DNA from: a virus | DNA: 64,000 bases | Strand: one strand, 5' to 3' | IMG/VR virus record: IMGVR_UViG_3300028416_000485 | In this document: positions 3,860-54,300 of the stretch, one piece after another | Layout of the letters: every line of letters starts with the position of its first letter | Numbering within the stretch: position 1 is the first letter of the stretch | The notes under the pieces: generated by a model | The model's input: the letters and a program-made list of their open reading frames with translations, nothing else | Database searches by the model: none | What the model was told of the DNA's origin: nothing | Position numbers and translations under genes: made by a program

Positions 3860-3867
3860 TATTTATC
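3860..3867 (-). promoter_or_regulatory. T4-type late promoter (GATAAATA) overlapping the stop codon of the 4540-aa gene
   Basis: Matches the TATAAATA-like gp55 element that recurs upstream of structural genes in this window. Confidence 0.6.
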
Positions 3868-12800: not shown

Positions 12801-15800
12801 TTAGATGCTAGTTGCCAGTTTTCAACTGTTTCGGTTGTTTTGTTAAAATATTCAAACTTAAATCCAATGTCTTTTAAATATTTTTGATATCCTAATAAAA
12901 AGTTAACTACTTGCTGTTCATCGTTTAATATTGTTCCGTAGTCAAGTGTTGATATTTCATTTGTAAAAGACTTTCTAAAATAGGCGCCGCGGCCACCGTT
13001 TTCAGGTAAGCTCGGTAGCGGTGTATATAAACTTAAATCAAAGTCAGTTGTTGTAGTATGATTTGCATTTACTCTATAATATCTATCGTTATATTCTACA
13101 AGTTTACCGGCAACTAAAAACTTATTTTCAGTCCACGTTATATATGCTTCACTTATACCGCCGACATTTACAAAAGGATCATTTGCACTTTCTCTTGGTA
13201 TATTATATTTAAAATACGGAGTATCTTTATCATATCCATTTATACGATATCCACTTTGTGTTCTTTCAATAATCACACCACTATAAGTTGCTACTATTTG
13301 GGGACTAGAAGTTCTCAAAACAATGTTATAGTTTTCATCCGGAACAAATATGTTTCCTTTATTCAACGGAGTTTTACTATCTAATACTAGTTTTAGTTTG
13401 TTCTTTTCGGCAAACCCAGCAAGTTTAAATCCTATTTTATTATCTAAAAGTTTTAGATTATTAGTGTATGTGGTATACGGATACAAAGAATCTGCATTAA
13501 TATATTCACTAATATAGTTTAAAAATCCTGCACTTACAGCATTTTCTATTTTAGGAAATATTAAATCCGTTGTGTTTATTCTTTTGTTTGTAGCAGTATA
13601 GATTAAGTTTCCAGCAATGTCACGCTGTGTTCTACTTCTGTCAAATCCAACACCCATTGTATGTGCAGGTCTAACGATCAATGCAGCAATCATCAAGCTG
13701 AACGGATAACCACTGCTTCTTCTCCACGCTGTTTCAGTTGGTGCTTCGTCGCCAAACTCAAATAGATTTTGACTTTGTGGTGCATAACTGAAGTTGCTTA
13801 CGTATCCGCTTTCTAAAGGTGATATTAGTTGGCCATTTTCATTGACTGGAATATGCTTTAGTAAGTTATGTCTAATATATTTTTTATTTCTTAGTATTGT
13901 TTTACCAGGTTCTCTAATCACGCCGTTTTGCAGGTCGGTCCAAAGTATTAAGTTATTGCTTGTGTAAGGGGCTGGGCCATAAACGTTTTCCCACCATGCT
14001 GGTTGTATTCCGTATCCTAACATTTCCCAAGGATGTGTATGCGGGCGATCAGTATCAAATGCCTGTCTATAAATGCCGCGCCAAAATCCTGGTACTGCTT
14101 CATTGCGGTCATTTGTACTTCCTGTATAGTTATAAGTAAAACTATCTCCTTGTACTATAAAGTTATTTTTAGTATAATCAGAAATCTTTGCAACATCAGT
14201 CCAGTCAATAAAATCTTTGATAATAATATTATTAATTTCTTGTGATGATATTTTTGTATTTCTATCTGCGCCACCTACAATATCATTTATGTCAAATATA
14301 TCTGGATTATAATCAACTTTTAGATTATTAAAAATACGCTTTTCCATTTCTAAAATCAAATCGTCTCTATAATCGTTATAAGCAAGTGTAATGCTGCCGT
14401 CATGGCCTCTAATAACAGTTTGCGGAGTTTGATAGCTAGAGTCAACAAATAGTTCAGGAACATATGCCGGGAACATTCCTATTTTTGTAGGCGTTGGTGG
14501 AATAAAACTACCTTCAGTATTATCATATTCGTGTATAGTTAATATATCGCCATCAGTTAGTGTTGCTGAAATATCTACAAATCCAGTTCCTGTAAATGTA
14601 TAATCTTTGTTAAACACAAGTTGTTGATCATTTAGATATATGTACAAGGCTTTATTACTAATGGCAGATTTATCAAATACTGTTGATAGTGAATAAACTG
14701 TTAATCTACTATCGAGTATTTCGTATTCAATCTTTTTACTGCCGCCTGTAGCTGCCATATCTGTACTATAAAAAGGAGTACTAGTAGTCTTTGTATTATT
14801 GATTTCATTAAAGATAAAATCAACATATTCTTTTACTGTTCCGTTAAATGAAGTTTCGGTTGCTGTCTGTACAAACTGTCTTTTAAACTTAGTATATTCA
14901 TTTAGTGCATATCTAATAGCTGCAACAACATTTGAACTTTTATTAACTAGATGATAAAGTGACAAGTTTAACGGGCCACTGTGCTGAACAAACTTTCGGC
15001 CATATTCGGCAACTGGTCCTAAATCTCGTAGATTGTTTATGCCAGGTTGAATACCTGCAAATGTTGCAACTTCTGAAACTAGTCCTTCAACATGATCATT
15101 TACTTCTCCTAATGTAAAATCTGTAATATTTTTATTAGACGGATTTCTTTCAAAGTTGTGTGGAATCTCATAATATCCATTATTGTTTTTGTCTGCTGAG
15201 CTTTTAGTTTTAATAACAACAATATCAGTAAATCCAATATCGTCAGGAAGTATAACCTTAGTTGTTTTATTTTCGTTGACTGTTTGATAATCAGATTTAT
15301 AACTATTATTGACATATACTTTTATTTCTAAGTCTGTTAGGTCTGCACTATTGTTATAGACATTAATCGGAAATCTATTTGTGTATTCTTCGCCAGTGTA
15401 TTTTTGTATAACATATTGACTACTTTTTATGTTTGCTTTTTTCCAAGCATTAGTGTATGATATAACTTGATTATTATATTCTTGTAAGAAGAAAACATCA
15501 CTACTTATAGTTTTAAAAATACTATTGACTTTATACTTGTAATCTTCTGCAAGTAAAGAAAAATCAAAAACAATATCGCCGATATTTACAAAGTTTTTGT
15601 ATGTAAGCGGAAATCCAAGTTCTGTATCGTTAGCACCTTCTCCTACTCTATAAGTAAAAAGTCTATTACCAGCAAAATCTGTACTATCATAAACTGTATT
15701 ATCTCCTAGGCTATTTCCACTACTGTCAAACAAATCAAACTTTGGTGCTTGATTTAATCCTGTTTTATCTTGAGCCGGTTGCCATCCTGTTGCATTATAC

Positions 15801-28618: not shown

Positions 28619-29632
28619 TTGTTTAACAAAGCGGCAGTGTTTACTGACATACACTTAGGTATGAAAGGCAACTCTCGAGTTCACAATCAGGACTGCGAGG
28701 ACTATATTGACTGGTATATCGAACAAGCTAAGGCTCACGGATGTGAAACTGGCTTGTTTTGTGGCGACTGGCACCATAATAGAAACAGTCTTAACCTTAC
28801 AACTATGGATACAACTATTAGACTACTAGAAAAACTAGGTGCTGCCTTTGAAAACTTTTATATGTTTGCTGGTAACCACGACTTGTACTACAAAGACAAG
28901 CGTGATATCAGTTCAACTGAGTTTGCAAGACACATACCGGGCATTACCGTAATAGATCAAATGATGGTCCAAGACGATGTTGCACTGGTTCCGTGGTTAG
29001 TTGGCGACGAGTGGAAGAAGATCGAAAAGTTAAAAGCAAAATACTTGTTTGGTCACTTCGAACTCCCATCGTTTTATATGAACGCTATGGTACAGATGCC
29101 AGACCACGGAGAACTAAAAGCTGAACACTTCAAGAATCAAGAGTATGTGTTCAGTGGACACTTCCACAAGCGTCAGAAACAAGGAAAGGTACATTACATT
29201 GGTAATGCTTTTCCACACAACTACGCAGATGCGTGGGACGATGCACGTGGTATGATGATACTGGACAAAGAAAATGATGTAGAACCATTGTACATCGACT
29301 GGACAGAGTGTCCTAAGTACCGTACAGTCAAGCTATCAAAGCTGATCGACGAGAAAGATACTCTTATCAAGCCAAACATGTATCTCAGGGTTACACTTGA
29401 CATTGATATCAGCTACGAAGAAGCAACTTTTATCAAAGAAACCTTTATGGAAACATATAGTTGCAGAGAAATAACACTTATTCCAAACAAAAACATCGAA
29501 GATATTACAACCGACCTTGACATTGAACAGTTTGAGAGTGTGGATCAGATTGTAAGCAACGAGATACAAGCAATCGACAGTGAACAGTTTAACAAAAAAC
29601 TATTATTAGACATATATAACGAGCTAACATGA
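28619..29632 (+). CDS. gp47: Recombination endonuclease subunit, gp47/Mre11/SbcD-like
   Basis: Metallophosphoesterase motifs DIHLG, GDWHH, GNHD, GHFE, SGHFH. TTG start with GGAG SD. Confidence 0.9.
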   Translation: MFNKAAVFTDIHLGMKGNSRVHNQDCEDYIDWYIEQAKAHGCETGLFCGDWHHNRNSLNLTTMDTTIRLLEKLGAAFENFYMFAGNHDLYYKDKRDISSTEFARHIPGITVIDQMMVQDDVALVPWLVGDEWKKIEKLKAKYLFGHFELPSFYMNAMVQMPDHGELKAEHFKNQEYVFSGHFHKRQKQGKVHYIGNAFPHNYADAWDDARGMMILDKENDVEPLYIDWTECPKYRTVKLSKLIDEKDTLIKPNMYLRVTLDIDISYEEATFIKETFMETYSCREITLIPNKNIEDITTDLDIEQFESVDQIVSNEIQAIDSEQFNKKLLLDIYNELT

Positions 29633-31407
29633 TTAAGATACAAGACTTAACCGTAAAAAACTTTATGAGTGTGGGTAATGTTACCCAGGCTGTTGACTTT
29701 AACAAAGAACAACTAACACTTGTACTAGGAGAGAACTTAGACCAAGGCGGAGATGACACTGGATCACGTAATGGTACAGGTAAGACTACTATCATTAATG
29801 CATTAAGCTATGCATTGTATGGTACAGCTCTTACAAACATCAAACGCAACAACTTGATCAACAAAACTAACAGTAAAGGCATGCTAGTCACTCTTAACTT
29901 TAGTATAGGTGCTAACCAATACCGTATTGAGCGTGGTAGATCTCCAAATGTACTCAAGTTTTACGTAAACAATCACGAGCAGAAGGACGATTTACACGAC
30001 GAATCACAAGGTGATAGCCGTAAAACACAAGAAGATATTAATAGTTTGCTTGATATGACTCACGACATGTTTAAACACGTGGTTGCACTCAATACTTACA
30101 CAGAACCTTTCCTAAGTATGCGAGCAAACGATCAACGTGCTATTATTGAGCAGTTGTTGGGCATTACCATACTTACTGAGAAGGCAGATAACTTAAAAGA
30201 AAAAGTAAAACAAACAAAAGATGCCATTACAGAAGAAACATTAAAGATTAATGCCATTGAAGCTGCAAATAAAAAGATTGAACAGAGTATTGAAACACTT
30301 GCAGGCAGACAACGTGCTTGGCAAAGCAAAAGTAGGCAAGACCAAGGAAAACTAGCAACAGGCATCGAAGAATTAGAAAAACTAGACATTGAAGCTGAAC
30401 TTGATGCGCATGAAAAACTAGCTAACTGGACTGAACACAACAATAAAATAACCTCTTTAAGGAAGGAGTTAAGCACACTCGAACCTGCACTACGGCGTGC
30501 CACTACTAGTGTTGAAAAGGTTAATAAAGACATCTTAGAATTAAAAGATGCAACATGTTATACCTGTGGACAAGAGCTACATGCAGACAAAAAAGCCGAG
30601 ATTGAATCACGAAAAGTGCAAGAACTTGACGATGCAGTTGCATATCAAGGCGAAGTTTCAAGTAAACTGAGCACAACTATGCAGTTATTAGAAGAAATAG
30701 GCGATATCAACGGCAAGCCTACTACTTTTTACGAAAATGCAAAAGAAGCATACGAACATCGTAACAATGTAGACAATTTACGCAATACTTTGATAAGTAA
30801 ACAGCAAGAAGAAGATCCTTATCAAACACAGATTGACGATTTAACAGAAACAGCACTACAAGTTATTGACTGGGAACCAGTTAATCAACTTACATTACTC
30901 AAAGAACACCAAGAGTTTTTGCTAAAACTGTTAACAAACAAAGACTCGTTCATTCGTAAAAAGATTATAGATCAAAACTTAGCGTACTTGAACAACAGGC
31001 TCACATACTATCTTGATAAACTAGGCTTACCACATCAAGTTCAGTTTCAAAATGATTTATCTACTGAGATTACTCAGTTAGGACAGGATTTAGACTTTGA
31101 TAACTTGAGCAGAGGCGAACGTAACAGGCTAATACTAGGCATGAGCTGGGCATTTAGAGATGTTTGGGAGTCGTTGTACCAAGGTATCAACCTATTGTTT
31201 ATTGACGAGCTCATTGATAGCGGTATGGATACTGCTGGTGTTGAATCAGCACTTGCTGTACTGAAGAAAATGGGCAGAGAACGTAGTAAAAATGTTTTTT
31301 TAATCTCACACAAAGACGAATTGATAGGTAGAGTTAACCATGTTATGAAAGTTATCAAAGAAAACGGCTTTACTAGTTACGAAAATGATATTGATATTAT
31401 AGACTAA
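29629..31407 (+). CDS. gp46: Recombination ATPase subunit, gp46/Rad50/SbcC-like
   Basis: Walker A NGTGKT, coiled coil with CYTC zinc hook, signature LSRGE, Walker B LLFIDE, ISH. Confidence 0.92.
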   Translation: MIKIQDLTVKNFMSVGNVTQAVDFNKEQLTLVLGENLDQGGDDTGSRNGTGKTTIINALSYALYGTALTNIKRNNLINKTNSKGMLVTLNFSIGANQYRIERGRSPNVLKFYVNNHEQKDDLHDESQGDSRKTQEDINSLLDMTHDMFKHVVALNTYTEPFLSMRANDQRAIIEQLLGITILTEKADNLKEKVKQTKDAITEETLKINAIEAANKKIEQSIETLAGRQRAWQSKSRQDQGKLATGIEELEKLDIEAELDAHEKLANWTEHNNKITSLRKELSTLEPALRRATTSVEKVNKDILELKDATCYTCGQELHADKKAEIESRKVQELDDAVAYQGEVSSKLSTTMQLLEEIGDINGKPTTFYENAKEAYEHRNNVDNLRNTLISKQQEEDPYQTQIDDLTETALQVIDWEPVNQLTLLKEHQEFLLKLLTNKDSFIRKKIIDQNLAYLNNRLTYYLDKLGLPHQVQFQNDLSTEITQLGQDLDFDNLSRGERNRLILGMSWAFRDVWESLYQGINLLFIDELIDSGMDTAGVESALAVLKKMGRERSKNVFLISHKDELIGRVNHVMKVIKENGFTSYENDIDIID

Positions 31408-31616
31408 TGAACGATACTCACGACCAGATAATGCAAGCCGTATTAAGTTACTTGAAGGCTAGTGAAACATTCGAAAGAAGACCAAGCGAAAGTACAAAAC
31501 GTACTGCTCGAAGAGAACTAAGATTGCTGATCGGTTTAGCAAAGCAAAGACAAGACGAAATCATAAACAAATATGAAAGTCATATGATTGATTTACGTAG
31601 TAGGAGAGATAAATGA
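31407..31616 (+). CDS. Small helical hypothetical protein
   Basis: 69 aa, overlaps the stops/starts of both neighbours (coupled). Confidence 0.6.
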   Translation: MNDTHDQIMQAVLSYLKASETFERRPSESTKRTARRELRLLIGLAKQRQDEIINKYESHMIDLRSRRDK

Positions 31617-33256
31617 AAATAACTGTTGTAGGAAGTGGAACTGCTGGTAGTTTAACAAGTGCCTTCATAGCAAAAGAGTTTCCTAATGCAACAGTTGAAA
31701 TGATACACAGTGAAAAAGTTGGTATCATAGGTGTTGGTGAGAGTATTACACCACATTTACCCGGAATGCTTGGCGGACTAGGTGTAGATGAAAAACGTTT
31801 TATGCGTGAAACAGATGCTGTGTTTAAATACGGCAACAGCATGGAAGACTGGACAGATACCGCAGACGGTCCTGATGTATTGAGAATGTTTTACTGGAGT
31901 AACGGATTAGAAAAAGAAAATACTTGGGAAAATGTTACAAGCACTTTCCCAAATGAAATAAAAACAACTGATGTTTGGTTAGATGTATTCAAGAATGGAA
32001 GTGCGCCCGACTTAGATGTGTATCATCATAATGCCGAAGGGTATCAATACTGCAAGGATTTAAAAATGCCATTTGATGACGATGGCAACTACTTATTACC
32101 TGCTACTGCAACATATGCTTATCATATTGACGCAGAAAAAACATCTCCATGGATTAGAAAAAATGTTTGTAGTGTATACGGTGTAATAGAAACAATAGCC
32201 CATGTTGAAAAAGTAAATACCAACGACGAAGGTATTACCAGTGTTATACTAGACAACGGACGTGAAGTTACTAGTGACATTTGGATAGACTGTACTGGAC
32301 TGTCTCGAGTTTTAATCGGCGAACTTACAAAAGATATGCACACTTACCAAGCAAACAAAGTAAACAGTGCATGGGTATGTCCTATCAACTATGAAGACAA
32401 AGAGTCCGAGCAAGTTAACTACACTAGAAGTATTAGACGAGACATGGGTTGGCAGTTTAGTATTGCGTTAACTAATAGAATAGGTACCGGATTAGTTTAC
32501 AGTGATGAATATTTTACAGACGAACAAGCATTAGAATATTGGCATAGTATTATTAAAGGAAGACAAATACGAGAGCCAAGAAAATTAAAATGGACGCCTG
32601 GAAGATTAAAAACTCCAAATGTAGGAAATACATTTGCTATTGGCATGGCAGCAGGATTTATTGATCCGTTAGAAGCCAATGCTGTTGTTAGTGCAATATC
32701 ATGCATGAAAAGACTTGCATGGATGCTACAACGTGACTACGACAAAGATTACTATAATCGCAAAGTTACATACTACTTTGACGATATAGCAGACTTTACA
32801 GCAGTTCATTATACATTGAGTAGACGTGGCGATAATCATTTTTGGCAAGACATGAGACGTATTGGACGTGAACTTGATCATAAAGGACTTGTTAAGAAAA
32901 AATATTACGAACAAGCAAACTGCATGGATAGTGTTGTAGGTTATGTTACAGCATTTCCAGATGTAAACTGGTTGGATATTGCCAACAACTGGGTACAAGA
33001 TTTAGATGATTGGCCTAGTAAGTCATCACCTGAACAACAGTCAGCATATATTCGCAGAGTACGTAATGAAAAGTTATTACACGAAATACATGCAAGTAAT
33101 AATAAAAAATCGATTGACATGTTTATGAAAATGTATAATAATGTTAATGAATACAACAAAGGCTTAAACAAATGGCCAACTGATTACTTTAGTAAGATGT
33201 TTGGTCAACAATATATTAACAGGCACATCAACAACTCAAAAAAGACACAAGTATAA
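31613..33256 (+). CDS. Flavin-dependent tryptophan-halogenase-like protein
   Basis: VVGSGTAG FAD loop, IGVGES, AVFKYG (catalytic Lys position), YAYHIDA, IDCTG, GFIDPLEA. AGGAG SD. Confidence 0.85.
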   Translation: MKITVVGSGTAGSLTSAFIAKEFPNATVEMIHSEKVGIIGVGESITPHLPGMLGGLGVDEKRFMRETDAVFKYGNSMEDWTDTADGPDVLRMFYWSNGLEKENTWENVTSTFPNEIKTTDVWLDVFKNGSAPDLDVYHHNAEGYQYCKDLKMPFDDDGNYLLPATATYAYHIDAEKTSPWIRKNVCSVYGVIETIAHVEKVNTNDEGITSVILDNGREVTSDIWIDCTGLSRVLIGELTKDMHTYQANKVNSAWVCPINYEDKESEQVNYTRSIRRDMGWQFSIALTNRIGTGLVYSDEYFTDEQALEYWHSIIKGRQIREPRKLKWTPGRLKTPNVGNTFAIGMAAGFIDPLEANAVVSAISCMKRLAWMLQRDYDKDYYNRKVTYYFDDIADFTAVHYTLSRRGDNHFWQDMRRIGRELDHKGLVKKKYYEQANCMDSVVGYVTAFPDVNWLDIANNWVQDLDDWPSKSSPEQQSAYIRRVRNEKLLHEIHASNNKKSIDMFMKMYNNVNEYNKGLNKWPTDYFSKMFGQQYINRHINNSKKTQV

Positions 33257-33277
33257 TGTATAAAATATAAACACTAT

Positions 33278-33733
33278 ATGAGTTGGACATACAAAGGTAA
33301 ACAGATAGAATCAATACCAGATGAGTACGAAGGATTTGTTTATCTTATTACTAACACTACTACAGGCCAAAAATATATAGGTAAAAAACTAGCAAAGTTT
33401 AAAACTACCAAGCCACCACTCAAAGGCAAGAAGAATAAACGTAGAGGCTACAAAGAAAGCGACTGGCAAACTTATTGGGGATCCAGTGATAGGCTTAATG
33501 CAGACGTAGCATCACTAGGCGAAGACAAGTTTACAAGAGAAATATTATACCTATGTAAAGGTAGGGGCGAAATGTCCTACATAGAGGCAAGAGAACAGTT
33601 TGATAGGCGTGTACTTGAAACAGATGAATACTACAACGGTATCATTAATGTTAGAGTAGGCGGATCGGATAAACTAAGACAAGCATTATTGGAACACCAT
33701 GTCAAGCAAAAAAAAGATACAACAAAGACTTGA
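33278..33733 (+). CDS. GIY-YIG family endonuclease (compact, Seg-like)
   Basis: GFVYLITN...KYIGKK, YWGSS, F.REIL, E..EQ, YYN motifs. Confidence 0.75.
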   Translation: MSWTYKGKQIESIPDEYEGFVYLITNTTTGQKYIGKKLAKFKTTKPPLKGKKNKRRGYKESDWQTYWGSSDRLNADVASLGEDKFTREILYLCKGRGEMSYIEAREQFDRRVLETDEYYNGIINVRVGGSDKLRQALLEHHVKQKKDTTKT

Positions 33734-33962
33734 ACAACTTGAGCGCAGTAGACAAACTAAGCGACAACGCTGGATAGAACAAAGTGAAGAACTTAGAGAG
33801 AAGACTGCAAATTACAAAGGCAAAGATACAAATCTAAACCTTAGTGAAAGACAAATTGATTCTTGGACAACTAAAAAAACTGGTATATCACCTACTCAAG
33901 GCAGTAAAGCAGATAAAAAAGCAGGCAGAACTAAAGGTAGATACCTTAAAGGCAAGCTATAA
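33699..33962 (+). CDS. Small highly basic hypothetical protein
   Basis: 87 aa, Lys/Arg-rich, overlaps the GIY-YIG 3' end by 35 nt. Confidence 0.45.
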   Translation: MSSKKKIQQRLEQLERSRQTKRQRWIEQSEELREKTANYKGKDTNLNLSERQIDSWTTKKTGISPTQGSKADKKAGRTKGRYLKGKL

Positions 33963-33971
33963 GGCAAAGCA

Positions 33972-34390
33972 TTCCAACACCTAAGGTTGGCGGGCCAGTT
34001 TATAATACCGCTGTGGAAAAAGCTCTCGTATAGAAGCACACGTAACATATTGATTGACACACCAGAGTGTGGAAGCCACCAAACAAATTGGGCTCACTGG
34101 TTGATATAGATTGTTTTGTTGGCAGTCGAAAAACACAAACACAGTACATAAAAACTCTTTAGCAATAGGAACGAAGCGAGAGGTAATGTATTATAAACTG
34201 CACATTAACTCAGTTAATGTACGTTTTATGTTACATATGTCGACGTAGGTTGGGAAAGGTCAGAGCCCATTGTACTTTGTGTATAAACAATAACCTACTT
34301 CCAATGTCTCGGCTGGATAAGACTCACATGAAGCTATCTTTGAGATTAGGTGGAACCGTAACAGGTTCCGTCTGACCAAAACAATCTACA
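33972..34390 (+). ncRNA. Large structured non-coding RNA candidate (multi-pseudoknot), family not recognised
   Basis: No ORF of 60 aa or more in the ~540-nt gap. Long-range complementarities 33996-34008/34188-34200 (13 bp), 34107-34118/34377-34388 (12 bp), 34089-34095/34263-34269, 34245-34251/34292-34298, plus local hairpins. G-U wobbles favour the + strand. Confidence 0.7.
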
Positions 34391-34401
34391 TGAAACTTAA
34401 A

Positions 34402-34483
34402 CATATCACATAAGTGATATGCTATTATTTTAATATGAAATGTGTTGAGTGCTAACGAAAACACAGTTGAACGTAGTTCAACT
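34402..34483. repeat. Cluster of short inverted repeats
   Basis: CATATCAC-ataa-GTGATATG (34402-34421), TGTGTT..AACACA (34441-34465), AGTTGAAC-gta-GTTCAACT (34465-34483). Confidence 0.7.
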
Positions 34484-34490
34484 TACATTA

Positions 34491-34498
34491 TATAAATA
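34491..34498 (+). promoter_or_regulatory. Late promoter, perfect TATAAATA
   Basis: Exact T4 late consensus upstream of 34523. Confidence 0.7.
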
Positions 34499-34522
34499 CA
34501 TTATGATAGTTGGAACAACTCT

Positions 34523-35902
34523 ATGAAACTAAGTGAAGTCACATTAAGAAAAACACATCTCATATTTGAAGATGATGCTGATACTCGTATGCCCGAGATT
34601 GATACCACTGCTGAGCTTAATGGTAAGACATACAAATGGCGTGGGCAAATGTGGACTGAGGTTAATCCTACCGGTGGTAATGGAAGGCCAGCGCCATCTG
34701 GAGTTGGTACGCAGCTAACAGCACAATGGAGAACAAGTAATCCAGTTCCCCGAGGTGTATTTAAACTAACTCCTGGTGTACAACAAGTTAGTAACAACAG
34801 GTTTATGGTAACCTTGCCGGATACAACAACTGTAGTTGAAACTGATAGCCTAGCCAATGCAAACGCTATACAACAAAGAGTTGACGAACTAGATGGCAAA
34901 ACTCCTAGACAAATTACAACAGCTATCGAAGCAGATACCAAAAGCGGTGCATTAAAGTCTACAAAGTTTACGAGAAGCTGGTCACTTGGCAGAGCTGTTC
35001 GAAACATGAATATTGCAGATTTCGAAAAGATGACAAGAGCAAGGAATAGTATTGTTGGAAAACTTCTTTCCAGTAGACTCTTTAGAATTGTTATAGGTTT
35101 TGCAGGCAATGCAGCTATGATAATAGGCATGTTTGCTGAAATTGAAAATGTACAGATAGAAATTGAAGAAGCTGAAGCAAACGGCGGTGACGTTCAGCGA
35201 TTACAAGATATTAAAAGTATACTAGTAGGACAGGCAATAGCGGCCTTTGCCGCTCAAGTAATAGCAATGCTTGCAAGAACAAGAACTGTAAAACTGCTAT
35301 TAACTCCATTAAGGGCTATAATTAGAGGCGGACAAGTAGCAACAGCACTTACCGGTGTTGGTGCACCTGCTGCATTTTTGAGTTTGATTGTTACTGAAGC
35401 ATTGTGGATAGTAATACCATTGATTTTAAGTACGTCAAGTGTACAACGTTGGATAGCTGAAATCATTGTTGATAGTACATTCAAAGATATTTTTGTCAGT
35501 ACAGGAAGAAGTGCAGTTGGAGTTGTAAATGCAGCTGATCAAATGCTTAATGGAAGATTTGGAACTGGAGCACTAGCTAAAGCATTAAACGGATTTGATC
35601 CAACTGAAACTGAAGGTGTTACAGGGGAGTACTACAGTGAGAGTGAATGGGCCAAGCTGGTTTTTGGCCCATTGTTGTTTCCACCAAACCAAGAAAGTAT
35701 GCTAGTTCCTTATATACCTAGCAGTAGAAGAAACGTATTGTTAGCAGGCACAATGGATCTTAATCCTATGGATGCTGATGATGTAACAAATGATGGAGAA
35801 GATGACACAGTGGATACATCTCCATCAGCTGGTGCTAATCCTGAAACTTCTAGCGATCCTGGAATGCCTATAAATCCTGATGCTCAAGCAGGACCGCAAT
35901 AA
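34523..35902 (+). CDS. Hypothetical late protein with hydrophobic (putative TM) helices and acidic tail
   Basis: 459 aa. Hydrophobic segments IVIGFAGNAAMIIGMF and APAAFLSLIVTEALWIVIPLIL. Late promoter upstream. Confidence 0.65.
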   Translation: MKLSEVTLRKTHLIFEDDADTRMPEIDTTAELNGKTYKWRGQMWTEVNPTGGNGRPAPSGVGTQLTAQWRTSNPVPRGVFKLTPGVQQVSNNRFMVTLPDTTTVVETDSLANANAIQQRVDELDGKTPRQITTAIEADTKSGALKSTKFTRSWSLGRAVRNMNIADFEKMTRARNSIVGKLLSSRLFRIVIGFAGNAAMIIGMFAEIENVQIEIEEAEANGGDVQRLQDIKSILVGQAIAAFAAQVIAMLARTRTVKLLLTPLRAIIRGGQVATALTGVGAPAAFLSLIVTEALWIVIPLILSTSSVQRWIAEIIVDSTFKDIFVSTGRSAVGVVNAADQMLNGRFGTGALAKALNGFDPTETEGVTGEYYSESEWAKLVFGPLLFPPNQESMLVPYIPSSRRNVLLAGTMDLNPMDADDVTNDGEDDTVDTSPSAGANPETSSDPGMPINPDAQAGPQ

Positions 35903-36142
35903 CTAAATCAACGGCATCTTTGAGTTTTTGGTATTTTCAATATTGTCTTTTATAATACTGGTAATAATATCGTGATCTTCTAAGTCAGTATCGTAAAGTA
36001 TTTGGTCAACTGAAATTCCGCCACGCATGTACCAACTAAGTCGATATGCGTTATCTTTTATTTGTTTGATATTATTTTCAAAATCTTTGGCTAACGAAAG
36101 TATATCAGAGTCTTCTAGGCTCGTTAGCCTTGTACGAAAAAA
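35903..36142 (-). CDS. gp51-like C-terminal extension of the hub chaperone, probably reached by -1 frameshift (or a 41-aa ORF from ATG at 36028)
   Basis: -1 frame open from the slippery T TTT TTC (36142-36136) to TAG at 35903: RTRLTSLEDSDILSLAKDFENNIKQIKDNAYRLSWYMRGGISVDQILY...KMPLI. Missing from the ORF track. Confidence 0.65.
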   Translation of the reverse strand, partial: FFRTRLTSLEDSDILSLAKDFENNIKQIKDNAYRLSWYMRGGISVDQILYDTDLEDHDIITSIIKDNIENTKNSKMPLI

Positions 36143-36963
36143 TCCGATGTATCCAATGATATTCTAACATCATCTTCATGGTCGCATTCGTTGCATTTTA
36201 TTGATTCAGGAGGAATACGCCATTCGTTGGTATTTTTTTCAATCAACTTTTTAAGTTCGTGAAACAACCCTACTTCGGCCTCGCCAAGGAAATCGTTTAT
36301 TTCTTCTCTATTAGTTTCAACTTCTCCATCTACTTCGACAGCAGAAACTTGATCAAGTATTGCTTGAGCAACTAAAATGTTTATTTTATCAATAACTTCT
36401 TGTATAAACTTTTCTTTTTCTTTTTCTTCATTGATCTTGCTAATATTTAGATTTAATGCACGTTGATATGCAGTTTGTTGTTTTTGTATATCAGTCCATG
36501 CCTTGTAGCTTAGTGGCTCAATATGTATAACAAAGTTTTCATAATGCAACTTATCTTCAAACTCTCTTGTTGAAAAGTAATCTAAATATTTTTGTAGTTC
36601 AACTTCGTATTGATTATCAGCACCGCATTTTTTACATTTAGATGAAACAGTCATAGTATCGCCATATGAAGACATTCTTATTGCTATAAGTATTGCATCA
36701 AGATCTAAAGTTTTAATAGCCCAAGGATCTATAATAGCTGGAATACAGCTACTAATGTTTTTTGCAGTTGCATCTCCGTTGATAAGTGCATCAGGGGTTT
36801 TAAATAATATTTCATCACTGGCTGTCATACTAAACACTGCGAGATTGGTATAGGTGTTCTCGGCTAATATTTTTTCATTATACCATTTTCCATTGCTAGG
36901 AATATTCAAATATAACTTAGGCTGTCTTCGATATTTTTTTAGCGGACTTTGTGTTTTTTCCAT
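36124..36963 (-). CDS. Baseplate hub assembly chaperone, gp26-like
   Basis: PKLYLNIPS.G, MTASDEIL, DLDAILIAIR..SYG, and two CxxC (CKKC, CNEC). Divergent from the tape measure gene. Confidence 0.7.
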   Translation of the reverse strand: MEKTQSPLKKYRRQPKLYLNIPSNGKWYNEKILAENTYTNLAVFSMTASDEILFKTPDALINGDATAKNISSCIPAIIDPWAIKTLDLDAILIAIRMSSYGDTMTVSSKCKKCGADNQYEVELQKYLDYFSTREFEDKLHYENFVIHIEPLSYKAWTDIQKQQTAYQRALNLNISKINEEKEKEKFIQEVIDKINILVAQAILDQVSAVEVDGEVETNREEINDFLGEAEVGLFHELKKLIEKNTNEWRIPPESIKCNECDHEDDVRISLDTSDFFVQG

Positions 36964-46434: not shown

Positions 46435-46520
46435 GATAAATACATATGTCAGATAGTGTGCCGCAAGGCGGACTTATGCTGTACCCGCAGCGTAGCTCAT
46501 AGAACGGGCATAGGACTACT
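46435..46520 (+). promoter_or_regulatory. Late promoter (GATAAATA) followed by a structured 5' leader
   Basis: GCC-GCAA-GGC tetraloop hairpin, TATGCTGT/GCAGCGTA stem and alternative pairings upstream of the ATAGGAG SD. Confidence 0.55.
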
Positions 46521-46538
46521 TTTTATAGGAGAAAACAA

Positions 46539-46988
46539 ATGGGAAGACCACTAAACAAAAGATTATTTGGAACACCAACAGCAGCTGGTTCTGAAATCAA
46601 AGTAAACTTTCATAATGGCACAGCCGTTAAAGAAGGTTATATCGTAAAGCAAGTAGGATCAAAAAAGTTTGTATGTGAAGAAATCGGTACAGGCGGAGAA
46701 TTTACTTGTACGCTAACAACTGGTAAATTGCCAGCAGCACTTGTAGCAGGTGAAATGTCAATTTCATTCAAAATGGACGATGCAGAAACATACACAGTAA
46801 GTAAAATTGCTGGACGTAAAGTAACATTAGTTGCTCCAAGTGCTACAGGCTCAAACGCATATGACGGCAAAAGTGTAGCTTGGAACTTTAGTACATCTGT
46901 AGCAGATGGCGCAGCACAAGTTGAAGAAGCTGGTGACGACAACACATTAGTTGGTGTTGATGACGACGACTTCACAGAAGACGCATAA
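46539..46988 (+). CDS. Putative virion (head/neck) structural protein
   Basis: 149 aa, strong SD, late promoter, first gene of the fibre operon. Confidence 0.6.
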   Translation: MGRPLNKRLFGTPTAAGSEIKVNFHNGTAVKEGYIVKQVGSKKFVCEEIGTGGEFTCTLTTGKLPAALVAGEMSISFKMDDAETYTVSKIAGRKVTLVAPSATGSNAYDGKSVAWNFSTSVADGAAQVEEAGDDNTLVGVDDDDFTEDA

Positions 46989-48392: not shown

Positions 48393-51300
48393 ATGAGTTA
48401 TATTAAAAGACAGTCGATACATAGCAGAAAAATAGGGGATAAGACCTTTATTCTTACATCCGACGGTGATATGGAAATGAACCTTGACGATGGCAAGGAG
48501 TTTCGTGTAAATGCCAATATGATCACCACAGGTGATGTTACTGGTCCAAAAGTTACTAATGTATACTACGTTACCGAAGATGGTAGTGATACAAACGATG
48601 GTAGAAGTGCAGATAAAAATGGCGCATTTGCTAGTATAAAACGTGCATCAGAAGTTGCACCCATTGGCTCAACTATTATTGTTGCACCAGGCGATTATTA
48701 TGAAAACAATCCGATCACATTACGTGACTTTGTTACTGTCTCAGGACAAGGCGAACTTAGAAATACTAGAGTGTTTCCAAAGAATCCTACTTCGGATTTC
48801 TTTCTTATGGGCAATGCTTGTTACTTATATCAAATAACATTTAGAGGATTACGTGCTCCAGGCTGGTGTACTCGAATACGCCCAGGCGCCCTAGTTACTA
48901 CTTCGCCATATGTACAAAACTGTACTAACATGAATGGTCCGTGGTTGAACGACGGAACTGAGTTTGTACCATTTGAAACTGTACAGATTGAAGGTATTAC
49001 ACCGGGTGCAAAACCAATATTATTAGCAGACAATCCAAACGTTCCTGTAGAAAAACAAATTAATCCAGAAGGTGGCGGTGGCGGACTACTAGTTGACGGA
49101 GACGACTACGATCCTGCATCACTAGTGTTTAGTTTTGTTGCTGACGCATTTACACAGATTTCACAAGGTGGTATTGGTTTCCATGTTACCAACTTTGGTT
49201 ATACACAGATTGTTAGTTGCTTCTCGGTCTTCTGTAGTACAGGATTTATGACTACCAAAGGTGGTTATTTAAGTATTTCAAACAGTGTTAGTGACTTTGG
49301 TACTAACGGTGTTGTAGCAGATGGGTATTATCCAGTAGCATATACCACAGCAACAGCTGATCAAAACTATTATTCTACAGTAGGTAGTGTAACACTTTCA
49401 TTTGCAGGAACAGGATACACTAGTGTACCAACAATACAGTTTAGCGCACCAGAAGGCGCAGGCGGAACAGTTGCCCAAGCTACTGCTCAGGTAGATTTAA
49501 CTACAGGTGAACTTGCAGCAGTCAGTATTACTGATAATGGTAGCGGATATCGAAGTGTACCGGATATTACATTTACAGGAGGTGGCGCAACAATACAAGC
49601 CACCGGAACAGTGAATCTAAGAACAAATGCTAGTATTGCTATTTCAAGTTTAAGAGACAAGCCGCAAACTGGTTCTGTTATTAAGTTTGACGGTGATGAT
49701 ATATTTTATTATATTACTTCAAACGACATTACAACACAGCCGTTTGTATACAATCAAGAAACTTGCGAACGTGATGTTAGACGTATCATTGATGCACTAA
49801 CTAGTGATATTGTTATGGGCACATACTATCAAACAACTACAGCAGCGCAAAGTTATTTACGAGCTACCTCTACTAAAGTTCTTTTAGATCAGCTTGCTCC
49901 TACTATATATGCACTTGAAGCAACACGTGACGAAATGAAAGCGTTAACTTCAAATCTTGCAATGAAAGAAGAACTGGATCAACGATTTAATATTGTTACT
50001 AGTACACTTGCAGCAGGCGATAGTACTGGCATTCCATTCGTTGGAGATCAGCTCGGCGACACATTTAACGATCTAAGTAGCATAGATGGCGAAATCATTG
50101 AAGCAAAAGATAATATTTTAGTAAATAGAGATTTTATTATTGCTGAACTAACTGCTTATATCAACGATCAGTTTACCGAACTAAGTTATAATCAAGCATG
50201 GTACGACGAAGATATGACAGTGTTCTTAACTGCACTTTCTTCATACATTGCCACAGGTGGCGACCATGTTATAGTTAGACAAGCAAAAGAGTTTAGATCA
50301 AGAACAAGATTTAAAAATCTTTATGTTTCTAGTTTTGCTTATCTAAGATCATTAGTTTTAGGATATACAGAAGTTAACACAGATCCTACTTCAGTAACTA
50401 GAGTAAATGAAGCATTTGATATTATTATTAACGTAGTTGACGATGGCGATAGTACAGGCATTGTACCTGCATATCCAGCAAGTGTTGGAGTTACGCAAAA
50501 TGGAATAGATTCAAAAGATCATTTACAAGCAAACAAGGATTTTATTGTTGCTGAGTTTATTGCTTACTTAGACACACTTGACAGTACACTAACTTATACT
50601 GCATCTGAATGGGAAGCATATGTTGAAAACTTTGTTGATGCTTTATCATATGATATTTTATATGGTGGTAACAATGCAACAGTACAAGAAACAACTTGGT
50701 TCTTTAAAAGTGTAACGTGGAGTAAATTTACTACTACAAATCTAACAGCATTTGAAGACGCATTTGCAAGAGTAAGATTTATTGTACAACGTGTTATTAG
50801 AGGACTTAGTGTTGCAAAAACATCAGGTAATGCAGAAACACAAGACTTTACAAGCGGCGATGCTACACAAATTGAAGCTACATTACTAGATGGATTAGTG
50901 CAAATAGTTGAAAACGTTATTAATGCACAAACTATTACTGGGTTGCCTACTAAATCTTATCCAAATATTGAAGAAGAACCAGCCGGACAAGTAAATGCAG
51001 CAAATAAACTACTTTCGGTTATTGCAACTATCCTTGAAGATACAATAGATTATAACTTAATCAATAACCCAACACTTACTTACAACGAAGAAAAGTGTAA
51101 ACGTGATGTTGGTTATATGGTTGATGCAGTATATAGAGATGCCCAGCTTGGAACAAATCAAAATAGTATTACAGCAGGATTATCTTACAATCGTGCAAAT
51201 GTTGCCTACTTAAACGGCGAACAAAAACCTGCAACTATTATTGCACTAAGAGAAGCAAAACGTTTGGCTGTATTAGCAGCAAGTGGCGAAGCAGCATTCC

Positions 51301-54300
51301 AGGACAAAGTTTCAGACTTATTTGATAATATTTTTGATATTATTGAGTTTAACCAACTACCTAGTGAAGGTAGAGAATATCCTGAACCAGGTCCAGCAGC
51401 TGATGCACTTATAAATGCGCACTCGCAGTTTGTTGCAAACAAAGCCTTTTTAACAGGCGAAGTTATTGCATATATTAATGATAACAACTTTGTATACGAC
51501 CAAGCCAAGTGTGAAAGAGATACAGGACTGATTATCTCAGGTGCTGGATACGATGCACTACTTGGAACAAACTATAATAGTGTAACCAACGGACTAGCAT
51601 ATTTAAGAGTAAATGCCGGAGCAGTGTTATCTGATCAGTTAACTGAAACACTAGCAGCGATTAACTTTGCAAAAGGACAATCAACTACAGCAACAGCTAG
51701 TGATGCAACAACACAAACAGCAGTTGGCGCAGCGTTTGACGAAGTAGTAGACATTGTTACAAATGGTATTGGCTTTGCAGATACACTAACATGGACAAAC
51801 CCAACTGGTGCAACTACCGGCCAGATTAATGCAAAAGATCAAATGGTTGCTAACCGTGCGTTTTTACAAAAAGAAGCAGCAACATTTATTACAAATAACT
51901 ACAAAGACTTTACATACAATCAAGAAAAGTGTGAAAGAGATATTGGCCTAATAATGGATGCCGTTGCACTTGATGTTGCACTTGGAACAAACTATAATAG
52001 TGTAACAGCAGGACTTGCATATCAGAGAGCTAGTAGTGCAGATTTACAAGACGATCAGTTGATACAAACGTCTGGAGCACTAAGAGAACTTAAAAAAGAA
52101 ATAGTAAAACTTGGACTAAGTGACACAGCAGAACCAAAAGCTGAAGCAGCAATGGACGAGATTATTGATATTCTTGAAAACGGAAACATCAGTACAGACG
52201 ATGCAGCAGACACATTAGTATTTCCAACTCCTGGCTTATTGCCTTCAACAAATGCTGTTGAAGCAAAAGATCAGTTGATTGCTAACAAAGCATACATACA
52301 AGAAGAAATAATACAGTGGATCACTGTTAACTATCCTGCATTAAGTTACGATGCAGTTAAATGTAGAAGAGATGTTGGATATATTGTTGATGCATTATGT
52401 CACGATATCTTATACGGCGGCAATAGCGCAACTCAACAAGCAGCACAATCGTATTTTGTTGGTGCTGTTGCACAACTAGGTGCGGGACAAGTAGCAGCTA
52501 CAGCAGCAGCATACAATAGACTAGGTCAAGTAGTTAGTGATATTGTTATTGAAGCAGTTGTTGAAAATAGTGCAGGCAACGTTTTAGTACAAGATACTAG
52601 CGGAACTCCGGCAAGTTCAACAGAAGCAGATGATGTATCAGGTCTAGTACAGATTATCGAAGATGTTATTACAGCAGGAAATATTGCCGGACTACCATCT
52701 GTGCAACTACCATCTGTTAGCTGGTCAACTAGTGTGTTACAACAAGCATACAGTACTATCAAAGGCAACAAAGATGATGTAAAAGAAACTGTGATTATTT
52801 GGATTGCAAACAACTTCCAAAGTTTTACTTACGACGAAGCAAAGTGTGCTAGAGATGTAGGTATTATGATAGAAGCTGTGTGTTATGATGCAGCAATAGG
52901 AACTAACTTCAATCAAGTAACATCAGGACTTGCATATCAAAGAGCAAATGCTGCGGTAGCTGTTGGTTCACAACTATTACAAACAGTTAAGTCTATTGAA
53001 TATCTAAGAGATACTATTAATACTGATGAAATACAGCTATCAGGAACATTTAGAAGTCGTGTACTTGCAGGATTTAATGAAATATTAGACATTATTAACA
53101 ACGGTGTTGTAAGTACAGATACATCAGCAGATACGCTAACATTCCCAGATAGCGGCCTAAATGCTAACTATCCACTAGCAGTAACTCAGCTACAAGCAAA
53201 CAGAGATTTCCTAGCAAAAGAGACTAGTGCATATGTTACTAATAACTATCCATTACTAACATTTGATGCAGCAAAATGTGAAAGAGACACCAAATATATC
53301 ATTGATGCTGTTTGTTATGATATTATATATCGCGGTAACTTAGCATCTAAAAATGCAGCAGAAAGTTATTTTGTTGGAGCAGTTTCTCAACTTGGTGCTG
53401 GACAACAAGCAGCTACAGTTGCAGCATTTAATGAACTAGCAAATGTAGCATCTGATGTTATTCAAAATATTACACACGGAACTGCAGAACAATCAGGTGT
53501 AACACAAGATACATCTAATCCAGGTTCTGATGCTGGTACAGCAGGCGAAGCACAAAACCTGTTGCAAATAGTAGAAGATGTTGTTAATAACAACAATATA
53601 GATTCTATTCCAGCAGATATTCTTACAGACATTACTTGGACAGCAGCAGAATTACAAACAGATTTTGCAGACTTGAATAGTACTACGAAAGTAGATTTTT
53701 ACAAAGCAGATGTTATTGATTATATCAATAAAACATTTACAAGAAGTTTTACATTCAATAGTGCAAAGTGTGAAAGAGATACAGGTTATATTGTTGATGC
53801 TCTTACATACGATATTTTATATGGCGGCAATGCTGCAACATATCAAGCAGCACAAGCATATTATGTTGGCTATGTAAGTCAAGTTGTAGGACAACAGCCT
53901 GAAACAGCAGCAGCATTAGGATGGGTAGATACACTACTTGGTAGTATATTACTCGATACATTATATGATGATCCAGAACAAACAGGCGTAGTACAAGATA
54001 CAACTGCTGGCGCTGCAACTGCAACTGAAGTAGCTAGAGCAACAGAACTATTAACAGTATTCCAAAACGTTATCACTGACGGTGTTGATAATCTTCCAGC
54101 TGTATCTTATCCAGATACATCATGGGCAACTGCCGGCGCACAAACTGCTATTGCAAGTTTAGAAGCAGCAAAAGCAACTATTGTTGCTGATACAATAACA
54201 GAACTTGAAGATAACTACAATGCATTTTCTTATAACGAAGCAAGTTGTAGAAATGACACAGGTCTTATTATTGATGCTGTAGCATACGATTTACTATACA

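What the first reader, a model, noticed from the sequence alone, without database searches (positions are those of the whole stretch)
33972..34390. Large multi-pseudoknotted ncRNA candidate directly downstream of a compact GIY-YIG nuclease
Seen: ~540 non-coding nt in an otherwise gene-dense genome, with many exact complementarities: CAGTTTATAATAC 33996-34008 with 34188-34200; TAGATTGTTTTG 34107-34118 with 34377-34388; TGGGCTC 34089-34095 with 34263-34269; ACACAA+AGTACA (34133-34148) with TGTACTTTGTGT 34271-34282; GTAGGTT 34245-34251 with 34292-34298; hairpins 33974-33990, 34058-34071, 34202-34220, 34346-34375. Several helices cross, giving pseudoknots, and G-U pairs point to the + strand. I do not recognise it as RNase P, tmRNA or a group I/II intron. 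Inference: a large structured RNA comparable in complexity to ROOL/GOLLD-type RNAs, or a ribozyme. Its position after a 151-aa GIY-YIG lacking an obvious DNA-binding C-terminal module, and after a very basic 87-aa protein, raises the possibility of a nuclease-RNA complex. A replication-origin RNA is the main alternative.
Basis: partly seen in the sequence, partly recalled or inferred. Interest (0 to 1): 0.8.

Follow-up and report, generated by a model that had tools for sequence, protein, structure and literature searches.

The report
Twin-box knotted phage RNA, origin-like
The gene-free stretch after a small nuclease gene of this uncultured giant marine phage encodes a real, multiply knotted RNA of about 430 bases that matches no RNA catalogue; it carries one 7-letter word twice, always changing in step, and it most likely (not proven) starts DNA copying the way plasmid ColE1's primer RNA does.

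Summary
Window 33966-34400 (+) folds into 16 helices, four of them crossing. On 66 diverse relatives 94.6% of cells pair, 44 of 83 pairs change on both sides, and the covariation score beats 500 of 500 shuffles. About 200 uncultured phage contigs carry the RNA. Rfam 15 has no match, even at E<=10.

The nuclease-RNA reading is not supported. The RNA follows the GIY-YIG gene throughout the T4-like clade, but two contigs of another phage type (L050, L059) carry it without that gene, and GIY homologues in Melnitz and Syn9 lack it.

Two single-stranded boxes (ACAUGAA, 34326-32 and 34388-94) are identical in all 181 loci judged, with about 20 variants. I found no complementary partner in the RNA, its flanks or a 335-kb relative.

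Downstream lie a c(UUCG)g-type terminator hairpin in most relatives, DNA mini-hairpin motifs (GCGNNAGC, C-GNA-G) and a T4 late promoter.

Best reading, about 0.4 and untested: a ColE1 RNA II-like pre-primer. Box 1 pairs with the template DNA strand at box 2, an R-loop forms, and the displaced strand exposes priming hairpins.

Earlier agents of this scan found the same family on other DNA. Their link to Polynucleobacter-1 (RF01718) was not reproduced here.

The parts
33228..33257 (+). sigma-70-like promoter (TCAACA, 18 nt, TATAAT) upstream of the GIY-YIG gene; candidate start of the transcript that runs into the RNA
   Evidence: Consensus scan only; not tested.
33278..33733 (+). GIY-YIG nuclease gene, catalytic domain only, 151 aa
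   Evidence: Pfam PF19835 SegE_GIY-YIG at E 7e-35; phrog_447. It lies directly upstream of the RNA in nearly every T4-like locus.
33699..33962 (+). p87, a small basic ORF inserted between the GIY gene and the RNA
   Evidence: Present only in the window, L002 and L111. No Pfam or PHROG family.
33974..34127 (+). 5' domain. S1 33974-79:34117-22 is a pseudoknot with hairpin e 34109-13:34123-27. Also b 33989-93:34008-12; c 34013-41; d1 34047-55:34099-34107 enclosing d2 34058-71 and the optional d3 34075-93.
   Evidence: Pairs changed on both sides: S1 5 of 6, e 5 of 5, d1 5 of 9. One class of relatives replaces this domain with a shorter one.
34133..34298 (+). Core. g2 34133-38:34277-82 and g1 34143-48:34271-76 enclose hairpin h (34155-82, conserved loop AGGAACGA) and the variable hairpin i (34186-34236). 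j 34245-50:34293-98 crosses g. The near-invariant 17-mer GGGAAAGGUCAGAGCCC lies at 34253-69.
   Evidence: g1 has 6 of 6 pairs compensated. j is compensated in L099, L057 and L058.
34258..34377 (+). Helix n, 34258-63:34372-77. It crosses g and j and stacks on hairpin o.
   Evidence: Almost invariant. The rare variants C61>U and A62>G keep pairing by wobble; G59>A does not. G-U/G-C alternation at 34258:34377. Support is modest.
34306..34346 (+). Hairpin m' (34306-12:34340-46); its large apical loop displays box 1
   Evidence: Many compensated stems, for example GUCUCGG/UUGAGAU, AGUCUUGG/UCAAGAUU, UGUCUA/UAGACG and GUCUAGG/UUUAGGC.
34326..34332 (+). Box 1, ACAUGAA
   Evidence: Identical to box 2 in all 181 loci judged, across about 20 variants.
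34350..34371 (+). Hairpin o; the 3' arm GGUUCCGU is almost invariant
   Evidence: One-sided changes all keep pairing: U-G/C-G and G-U/A-U.
34388..34394 (+). Box 2, ACAUGAA, in the single-stranded 3' tail
34402..34430 (+). Terminator-like hairpin T (8 bp, loop AUAA) followed by a U-rich run; probable 3' end of the RNA
   Evidence: Terminator scan; DNA fold z -5.4. The stem covaries, and most relatives have a c(UUCG)g loop here.
34441..34465 (+). Hairpin A. The outer stem is TGTGTT/AACACA. The core GTGCTAAC (34449-56) is the window's variant of the GCGNNAGC mini-hairpin motif.
   Evidence: The motif GAGYG..RCGAA is present in 91 of 127 distinct relatives at this position. GCGNNAGC is a known ssDNA mini-hairpin at phage priming sites (PMC13037366).
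34465..34483 (+). Hairpin B: 8-bp perfect stem with a C-GTA-G triloop
   Evidence: Stems covary completely among relatives. Loops are GAA (37), GTA (33) and GCA (8), the DNA-type GNA triloop.
34491..34498 (+). T4-type late promoter TATAAATA for the next gene (p459, 34523-35902)
   Evidence: Read from the sequence. ATAAATA recurs after hairpin B in relatives. That this motif is the T4 late promoter is established knowledge.

Best explanation
The locus is an RNA-primed (R-loop) replication origin module, analogous in logic to ColE1 RNA II but unrelated in sequence.

Proposed steps:
1. An early or middle transcript runs through the GIY-YIG gene into the 430-nt RNA.
2. The knotted scaffold folds as it is made and holds box 1 single-stranded in the loop of hairpin m'.
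3. About 60 nt later RNA polymerase transcribes box 2. Box 1 has the same sequence as box 2, so it can pair with the template DNA strand there.
4. This pairing wedges the duplex open and anchors the transcript as a persistent RNA-DNA hybrid.
5. The RNA, as made or trimmed, primes rightward DNA synthesis.
6. The displaced + strand then exposes mini-hairpins (GCGNNAGC and C-GNA-G types) that act as single-strand priming or helicase-loading signals.

Shown here: the RNA, its fold, the identity rule of the boxes, the absence of any encoded complement, and the conserved order of the downstream hairpins.

Inferred, not shown: transcription start and end, the R-loop, priming, and any origin activity.
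For: 1. The boxes obey identity, not complementarity. All 181 of 181 loci share a 7-mer or longer, with about 20 variants.

2. No complementary partner turned up anywhere searched:
- inside the RNA;
- within 800 nt on either side;
- at any fixed offset in about 1.3 Mb of held loci;
- in the 64-kb window;
- in a syntenic 335-kb phage contig whose box is 10 nt long;
- in that phage's tRNAs or tmRNA.
A partner that need not be encoded separately is the template DNA strand of the other box.

3. There is a precedent. In ColE1 an rG stretch of RNA II must pair with a dC stretch of the template strand to form the persistent hybrid (PMC4412123). T4 oriF and oriG are also R-loop origins (same paper).

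4. Both boxes are unpaired. Box 1 sits in the loop of a covarying hairpin and box 2 in the 3' tail.

5. A conserved module follows: an RNA-type terminator hairpin, an AT-rich spacer, then + strand GCGNNAGC and C-GNA-G hairpins. These motifs mark priming sites at the phage G4, St-1 and alpha3 origins and at RSF1010 ssiA (PMC13037366). Loops such as GAUA and GUUA are not GNRA, which argues for DNA rather than RNA hairpins.

6. The RNA is independent of the nuclease. It occurs in another phage type, just upstream of terminase genes.

7. There is one copy per genome. It sits beside the recombination genes sbcD and sbcC, and it lies 4.6-6.7 kb from the point where gene strands and GC skew diverge.
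Against: - No expression, R-loop or replication data exist.
- A stable RNA hairpin with a U-rich run lies between box 2 and the DNA-type hairpins, so the transcript may simply end there.
- The box hybrid would be only 7-10 bp and A-rich, weaker than ColE1's G6:C6.
- GC skew follows gene strand, and its local minimum is not at the RNA.
- T4-like phages are known to use simple promoter-plus-unwinding-element origins, so the ornate fold is not explained by need.
- GCGNNAGC hairpins with GNRA loops could equally be RNA hairpins if transcription reads through.
- The origin idea was also reached by earlier agents of this scan. That is not independent evidence.
Confidence: 0.4

Rival explanations
1. 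A trans-acting RNA. The scaffold presents two copies of one 7-10-nt seed that pair with two sites or two molecules of a complementary RNA or DNA. The target could be a host or phage transcript start region, since the complement of most boxes contains AUG. Alternatively the boxes act as decoy sites for a sequence-specific factor such as a toxin endoribonuclease.
For: The boxes are single-stranded, identical and fast-changing inside an otherwise near-invariant core. By my tally of the variants, 169 of 180 loci have a box containing CAU, so the complement contains AUG. The RNA moves between unrelated phage lineages as a self-contained unit.
Against: No covarying complement was found in any held phage sequence, including a 335-kb genome. 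The apparent third box in sbcC does not covary. A host target would not be expected to change between near-identical phages (sbcC 97% identical but different boxes). This reading leaves the downstream DNA-type hairpins unexplained.
Confidence: 0.2
2. A 3'-terminal element of the early operon: an mRNA stabiliser, a transcription insulator, or a regulator of the adjacent late promoter. For example, it could provide a clamp-loading junction that activates T4-type late transcription.
For: It always lies at the end of a co-oriented operon. It is followed by a terminator hairpin and, in many loci, by a late promoter. The stop codon of the upstream ORF lies in or next to helix S1.
Against: Four crossing helices and about 430 nt are far more than stabilisers or terminators need. 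The identity rule of the boxes is unexplained. In many loci the next gene is on the opposite strand.
Confidence: 0.15
3. A ribozyme, possibly a relic or derivative of a group I intron associated with the homing-endonuclease-like gene. The two boxes would be two identical processing or ligation sites.
For: The g/h/i/j arrangement has the topology of group I P3, P4-P5, P6 and P7, with an A-rich joiner after g. Peripheral elements are swapped in the way seen in large ribozymes: a GNRA tip in most relatives against a 13-bp loop pairing in the window. It is adjacent to a GIY-YIG gene.
Against: There is no P8 and no conserved terminal G. No Rfam intron match even at E<=10. No split host gene: both flanks vary. 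No internal guide is complementary to the boxes. No relative lacks the inter-box segment.
Confidence: 0.1
4. A guide or partner RNA of the GIY-YIG nuclease: the RNA supplies the DNA specificity that the catalytic-domain-only enzyme lacks.
For: Adjacency is conserved in more than 150 T4-like loci. The enzyme has no recognisable DNA-binding module. The boxes vary like specificity determinants.
Against: The RNA occurs without the gene (L050, L059) and the gene without the RNA (Melnitz, Syn9). Insertions separate the two in several loci. No GIY residue tracks box type. The phage's own DNA carries both boxes.
Confidence: 0.05

Closest known systems
ColE1 RNA II pre-primer and origin
   Same: A structured transcript of about 550 nt whose fold decides whether a persistent RNA-DNA hybrid forms. 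An upstream RNA stretch must match the sense sequence near the origin so that it can pair with the template strand (rG with dC; PMC4412123). Strand-specific single-strand signals lie downstream on the displaced strand.
   Different: No sequence or Rfam relation. The boxes are 7-10 nt of mixed, A-rich sequence about 60 nt apart, not G6/C6 about 245 nt apart (the ColE1 distance is from my own knowledge). No antisense RNA I-like regulator is seen. A terminator hairpin follows box 2. Origin function is untested here.
T4 oriF (uvsY) and oriG (gene 34) R-loop origins
   Same: Origins of T4-type phages in which a transcript stays hybridised and primes leading-strand synthesis (PMC4412123).
   Different: The T4 origins are a middle promoter plus an unwinding element, with no large folded RNA. 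No homology was detected.
Single-strand initiation hairpins (phage G4, St-1 and alpha3 complementary-strand origins; RSF1010 ssiA)
   Same: GCGNNAGC and C-GNA-G mini-hairpin motifs on one strand at priming sites (PMC13037366). The relatives' hairpin A carries GCGTTAGC, GCGAAAGC and similar; hairpin B carries C-GAA-G or C-GTA-G.
   Different: Here they sit in a double-stranded phage genome downstream of an RNA gene. Recognition by a primase is not shown.
GOLLD (RF01998) and ROOL (RF03087) large ornate RNAs of phages and prophages
   Same: Large, multi-pseudoknotted, phage-borne RNAs of unknown function, with variable peripheral hairpins.
   Different: No match to either model. The architecture is different. 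Neither is known to carry twin identical boxes (my own knowledge).
Polynucleobacter-1 motif (RF01718; PMC2864571)
   Same: Earlier notes of this scan say that freshwater relatives of this RNA match it in their first third.
   Different: Not reproduced here. There was no hit in the window, even with the 5' domain searched alone at E<=10, in nine other loci, or in four whole records.
Group I introns with GIY-YIG homing endonucleases
   Same: A P3/P7-like pseudoknot enclosing two hairpins, GNRA-tipped peripheral elements, and a neighbouring GIY-YIG gene.
   Different: No P8, no exons, no guide sequence, no Rfam hit.

Membership tests
Any Rfam 15 family | Covariance-model match at the gathering score, or at least E<=10 | tested here: not met
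   The window at gathering score gives only freshwater-2, at 46457. Region 33600-34800 at E<=10 gives only two chance hits. The 5' domain alone gives none. Nine relatives give none.
Polynucleobacter-1 (RF01718) | Match to the 141-position model | tested here: not met
   A whole-record search of 121Q, PA5oct, Melnitz and the MAG holding C57 found 0 matches at E<=1.
tmRNA / tRNA | tRNA-like domain found by ARAGORN | tested here: not met
   No tRNA or tmRNA gene in the window. The related phage C57 has a separate permuted tmRNA elsewhere.
Group I intron | P3-P7 pseudoknot enclosing P4-P6 | tested here: inconclusive
   Helices g and j cross and enclose hairpins h and i. This is a match of topology only.
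Group I intron | P8, a guide sequence pairing with exon ends, and a split host gene | tested here: not met
   Only 10-16 unpaired nt lie between g-3' and j-3'. Nothing is complementary to the boxes. Both flanks are variable.
ColE1-type RNA-primed origin (works like; not homologous) | An upstream RNA segment able to pair with the template strand at a downstream site of the same transcript | tested here: met
   Box 1 equals box 2 in 181 of 181 loci, and both are unpaired. This is a sequence property only.
ColE1-type RNA-primed origin (works like; not homologous) | Persistent RNA-DNA hybrid, a processed 3' end used as primer, and origin activity | not testable with these tools
No cultured host or phage carries the RNA.
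ColE1-type RNA-primed origin (works like; not homologous) | Single-strand priming signals on the displaced strand downstream | tested here: inconclusive
   GCGNNAGC and C-GNA-G hairpins lie on the + strand in most loci, and the motif class is known from priming sites. Their function here is untested.
RNA-guided nuclease systems (omega-RNA-like) | Obligate co-occurrence of nuclease and RNA | tested here: not met
   The RNA occurs without GIY in L050 and L059. GIY occurs without the RNA in Melnitz and Syn9.
RNA-guided nuclease systems (omega-RNA-like) | A variable guide matching a target outside the element | tested here: not met
   No complement of the boxes was found.

The most novel reading that the evidence does not exclude
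The RNA is a self-contained, horizontally mobile 'origin cassette'. Its protein-independent fold uses a programmable word (box 1) to invade its own DNA at box 2. The rapid, coupled change of the two boxes would then set origin identity between competing phages: only matched boxes fire. The same RNA-DNA junction might also load the sliding clamp that switches on the adjacent late promoter, so that one RNA couples replication start and late transcription.
Probability: 0.12. Interest if true: 0.9.

Novelty: new variant of a known kind. Interest (0 to 1): 0.75.

Why it matters
Replication origins of jumbo and T4-like marine phages are essentially unmapped. No large folded RNA has been tied to a phage origin.

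If this reading holds, it would give three things:
- a sequence-recognisable origin marker for hundreds of uncultured giant phages;
- a second, independent example of the ColE1 principle, in which an upstream RNA word pairs with the template strand;
- a directly testable rule: break one box and function is lost, restore identity and it returns.

If the reading is wrong, the family is still one of the largest and best-supported uncatalogued structured RNAs in phages. Its pattern of direct repeats that change together has, to my knowledge, no described counterpart among catalogued RNAs.

Tried and rejected
1. Known RNA families (Rfam), tmRNA and RNase P. No hits. The GGGAAAGGUC resemblance to RNase P CR-I is anecdotal.

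2. Polynucleobacter-1, a lead from earlier notes. Not matched.

3. An internal partner for the boxes. None by helix scan, mutual information or a G-U-tolerant search. The UGUGU-rich 3' strand of helix g can pair with the boxes in about half of the sequences, but it does not track the variants.

4. A partner in the flanks or the genome. None.

5. A 'third box' in sbcC (GCACATGAAAAA, coding ELDAHEKL). It does not covary, so it is a coincidence.

6. A third box at the GIY start codon. None.

7. Rolling-circle or DRT2-like concatemer coding from the inter-box unit. In 84 of 112 units no frame is open on either strand, and unit lengths show no 3-nt periodicity.

8. Translational bypass or a small ORF at the boxes. 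No conserved frame.

9. Co-evolution of p69 or GIY residues with box type. No clean association.

10. A conserved kissing contact between the b loop and hairpin i. Found only in the window. A possible contact between the b loop (CCAG) and the m' loop (CUGG) has one compensated case (L124) and several exceptions, so it stays open.

11. GC skew as an origin marker. It follows gene strand and is uninformative.

12. Cultured relatives. blastn against 50,697 phage records found nothing. The covariance model of the 3' core found nothing in 121Q, PA5oct, Melnitz or Syn9.

Full report
**What is there**

The window comes from an uncultured T4-like jumbo phage. Its SbcC is 50% identical to that of Pseudomonas phage PA5oct. 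Its GIY-YIG protein is 70% identical to one in Methylophilales phage Melnitz.

A syntenic 335-kb contig, C57, sits in a Marinimicrobia MAG. It is plainly a phage, with 10 tRNAs and a permuted tmRNA.

Between the GIY-YIG gene (33278-33733), a lineage-specific small ORF p87 (33699-33962) and the next gene p459 (34523-35902) lie 560 non-coding bases.

**Is the RNA real?**

- The downstream protein p459 led to 14 IMG/VR loci. The stretch aligns with 13 of them: L002 at 99.8% and 12 at 71-77% identity.
Virtually all are true homologues by nhmmer, at 67-616 bits.
- A second, independent anchor gave about 80 further loci, and the 17-mer is nearly invariant there too.
- On a 66-sequence alignment (A2) I tested a structure of 16 helices and 83 pairs. 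In it 94.6% of cells pair and 44 pairs change on both sides. The covariation score is 0.271 against 0.136 for shuffles (0 of 500 reach it) and about 0.05 for slid partners.
- G-U pairs and GNRA loops fix the strand as +.

**The fold (window coordinates)**

- S1, 33974-79:34117-22, forms a pseudoknot with hairpin e, 34109-13:34123-27.
- Hairpins b and c and the branched helix d make up the rest of the 5' domain.
- A long helix g (34133-48:34271-82) encloses hairpin h, whose loop AGGAACGA is conserved, and the variable hairpin i.
- Helix j, 34245-50:34293-98, crosses g.
- Helix n, 34258-63:34372-77, crosses both g and j and stacks on hairpin o. It has only wobble-type support.
- Hairpin m', 34306-12:34340-46, covaries richly.

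- Four are confirmed.
- Two are complementary but show no covariation.
- One 13-bp pairing is specific to the window.
- One local hairpin is replaced by S1.

**Not a known family**

- Rfam 15 gives nothing, even at E<=10 on 196-1200-nt slices.
- ARAGORN finds no tRNA or tmRNA.
- Earlier agents of this scan linked freshwater relatives to Polynucleobacter-1 (RF01718). I could not reproduce that for this window, for nine other loci or for four whole records.
- blastn against 50,697 phage records found no cultured carrier.
- A covariance model of the 3' core found none in 121Q, PA5oct, Melnitz or Syn9.

**Relation to the nuclease**

In the T4-like clade the order sbcC, p69, GIY, RNA holds wherever the upstream DNA is present. 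Four results argue against a dedicated complex:

- GIY homologues sit after nrdB, without the RNA, in Melnitz and Syn9.
- 230-300 nt are inserted between gene and RNA in several loci, including this window.
- Two contigs of another phage type (L050, L059) carry the full core just upstream of a small ORF, a small-terminase-like gene and the large terminase, with no GIY or sbcC.
- No GIY or p69 residue tracks the boxes.

A dedicated nuclease-RNA complex is therefore unlikely.

**The twin boxes**

- Box 1 is ACAUGAA at 34326-32, in the loop of m'. Box 2 is the same word at 34388-94, in the 3' tail.
- The two are identical in all 181 loci judged. About 20 variants occur, among them ACAUAAU, ACAUGAUG, ACGUGAA, ACAGGAA, GUAUGAA, GCAUAAAG, and AUCAUCAAGU in L050.
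- Mutual information picks out the box positions as the only strongly coupled 'same-letter' pairs.
- I looked for a complement in the RNA, in the 800-nt flanks, in all held loci, in the window, in the 335-kb contig C57 (whose box is 10 nt long) and in its tRNAs and tmRNA. There is none.
- A look-alike in sbcC is a coding coincidence.

**The downstream module**

After box 2, most T4-like relatives share one order:

1. A hairpin whose loop is c(UUCG)g in most relatives, followed by a U-rich run. This looks like an RNA-type terminator.
2. An AT-rich spacer that often contains ACGAAGT.
3. Hairpin A, built around GAGCG-NN-AGCGA, that is GCGNNAGC. It is present in 91 of 127 distinct loci. The window has the compensated variant GTGCTAAC at 34449-56.
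4. Hairpin B, a perfect 7-9-bp stem that covaries freely, with a C-GNA-G triloop (GAA 37, GTA 33, GCA 8). In the window it lies at 34465-83.
5. A T4 late promoter, TATAAATA, at 34491-98.

GCGNNAGC and GNA-loop mini-hairpins are extraordinarily stable in single-stranded DNA. They are noted at priming sites of phage G4, St-1 and alpha3 and at RSF1010 ssiA (PMC13037366). Loops such as GAUA and GUUA are not GNRA, which favours a DNA reading of hairpin A.

**Mechanism I commit to (confidence about 0.4)**

A rule of identity with no encoded complement is what one expects if box 1 in the RNA pairs with the template DNA strand of box 2.

This is the logic of ColE1. There, an rG run in RNA II must pair with a dC run of the template strand near the origin to create the persistent hybrid that primes replication (PMC4412123). 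T4's own oriF and oriG are R-loop origins as well.

In this reading the knotted scaffold positions box 1 so that it wedges the duplex open as polymerase passes box 2. The RNA then primes rightward synthesis, and the displaced + strand exposes hairpins A and B for lagging-strand priming or helicase loading.

Earlier agents of this scan also proposed an origin role. Their notes made me return to an idea I had set aside. The ColE1 box argument and the match to the mini-hairpin motif are what I tested here. None of this is independent experimental support.

**Weak points**

- There are no expression or replication data.
- An RNA terminator hairpin sits between box 2 and the DNA-type hairpins.
- The hybrid would be short and A-rich.
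- GC skew follows gene strand and does not mark the locus.
- The need for such an ornate fold is unexplained.

**Rivals**

- A trans-acting twin-seed or decoy RNA (0.2).
- A 3'-terminal regulatory or stabilising element, possibly feeding the late promoter (0.15).
- A group I-like ribozyme (0.1).
- A nuclease guide (0.05).

**Verdict**

- The family is uncatalogued. The scan has met it before on other DNA.

Noticed in passing
window 46457-46541 (+): A freshwater-2 RNA motif (RF02980) at 67 bits, above the gathering score. It lies just upstream of a 149-aa ORF at 46539.
   Followed up: no
window 31613-33256 (+): A tryptophan-halogenase-family gene (PF04820, E 2e-76) sits between p69 and the GIY gene. 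It is present in L014, L015 and L039 but absent from most relatives, so it is an indel in an otherwise syntenic block.
   Followed up: partly
window 29629-36963 compared with L004-L015: Divergence shows a steep gradient around the RNA. Protein identities are SbcC 97%, p69 88%, GIY 88%, p459 63% and the baseplate protein 88%; the RNA is 72-77% identical at nucleotide level. This looks like a recombination mosaic or hypervariable spot centred on the RNA and p459.
   Followed up: partly
window 3863-17485 (-) and 48393-57794 (+): Two giant ORFs of 4540 and 3133 aa.
   Followed up: no
L218 / G002:C57 (PBPT01000016.1, 335,231 bp): A contig binned in a Candidatus Neomarinimicrobiota MAG is syntenic with the window over about 45 kb. 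It carries 10 tRNAs and a permuted tmRNA (tag ANDNYAPEMAMAA). It is a jumbo-phage genome mis-binned as bacterial; C77 of the same MAG is a second copy or strain.
   Followed up: partly
relatives, 8-15 nt upstream of the GIY start codon: A conserved GGTAAGTA word precedes the GIY start codon in many relatives, and an AGGCAA word recurs in the intergenic spacers. These may be phage promoter or processing signals.
   Followed up: no
window 34390-34411 compared with 34523-34544: The 22 nt from box 2 onward (ATGAAACTTAAAC...) are 73% identical to the start of p459 (ATGAAACTAAGTG...). The resemblance is not kept in relatives with other boxes.
   Followed up: partly
L216 (PA5oct NC_071039.1) 76517-77179: The closest cultured relative by SbcC has a 660-nt gene-free gap near the same genes. 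It shows no similarity to this RNA, only a sub-threshold nqrA-II hit (E 0.62).
   Followed up: partly
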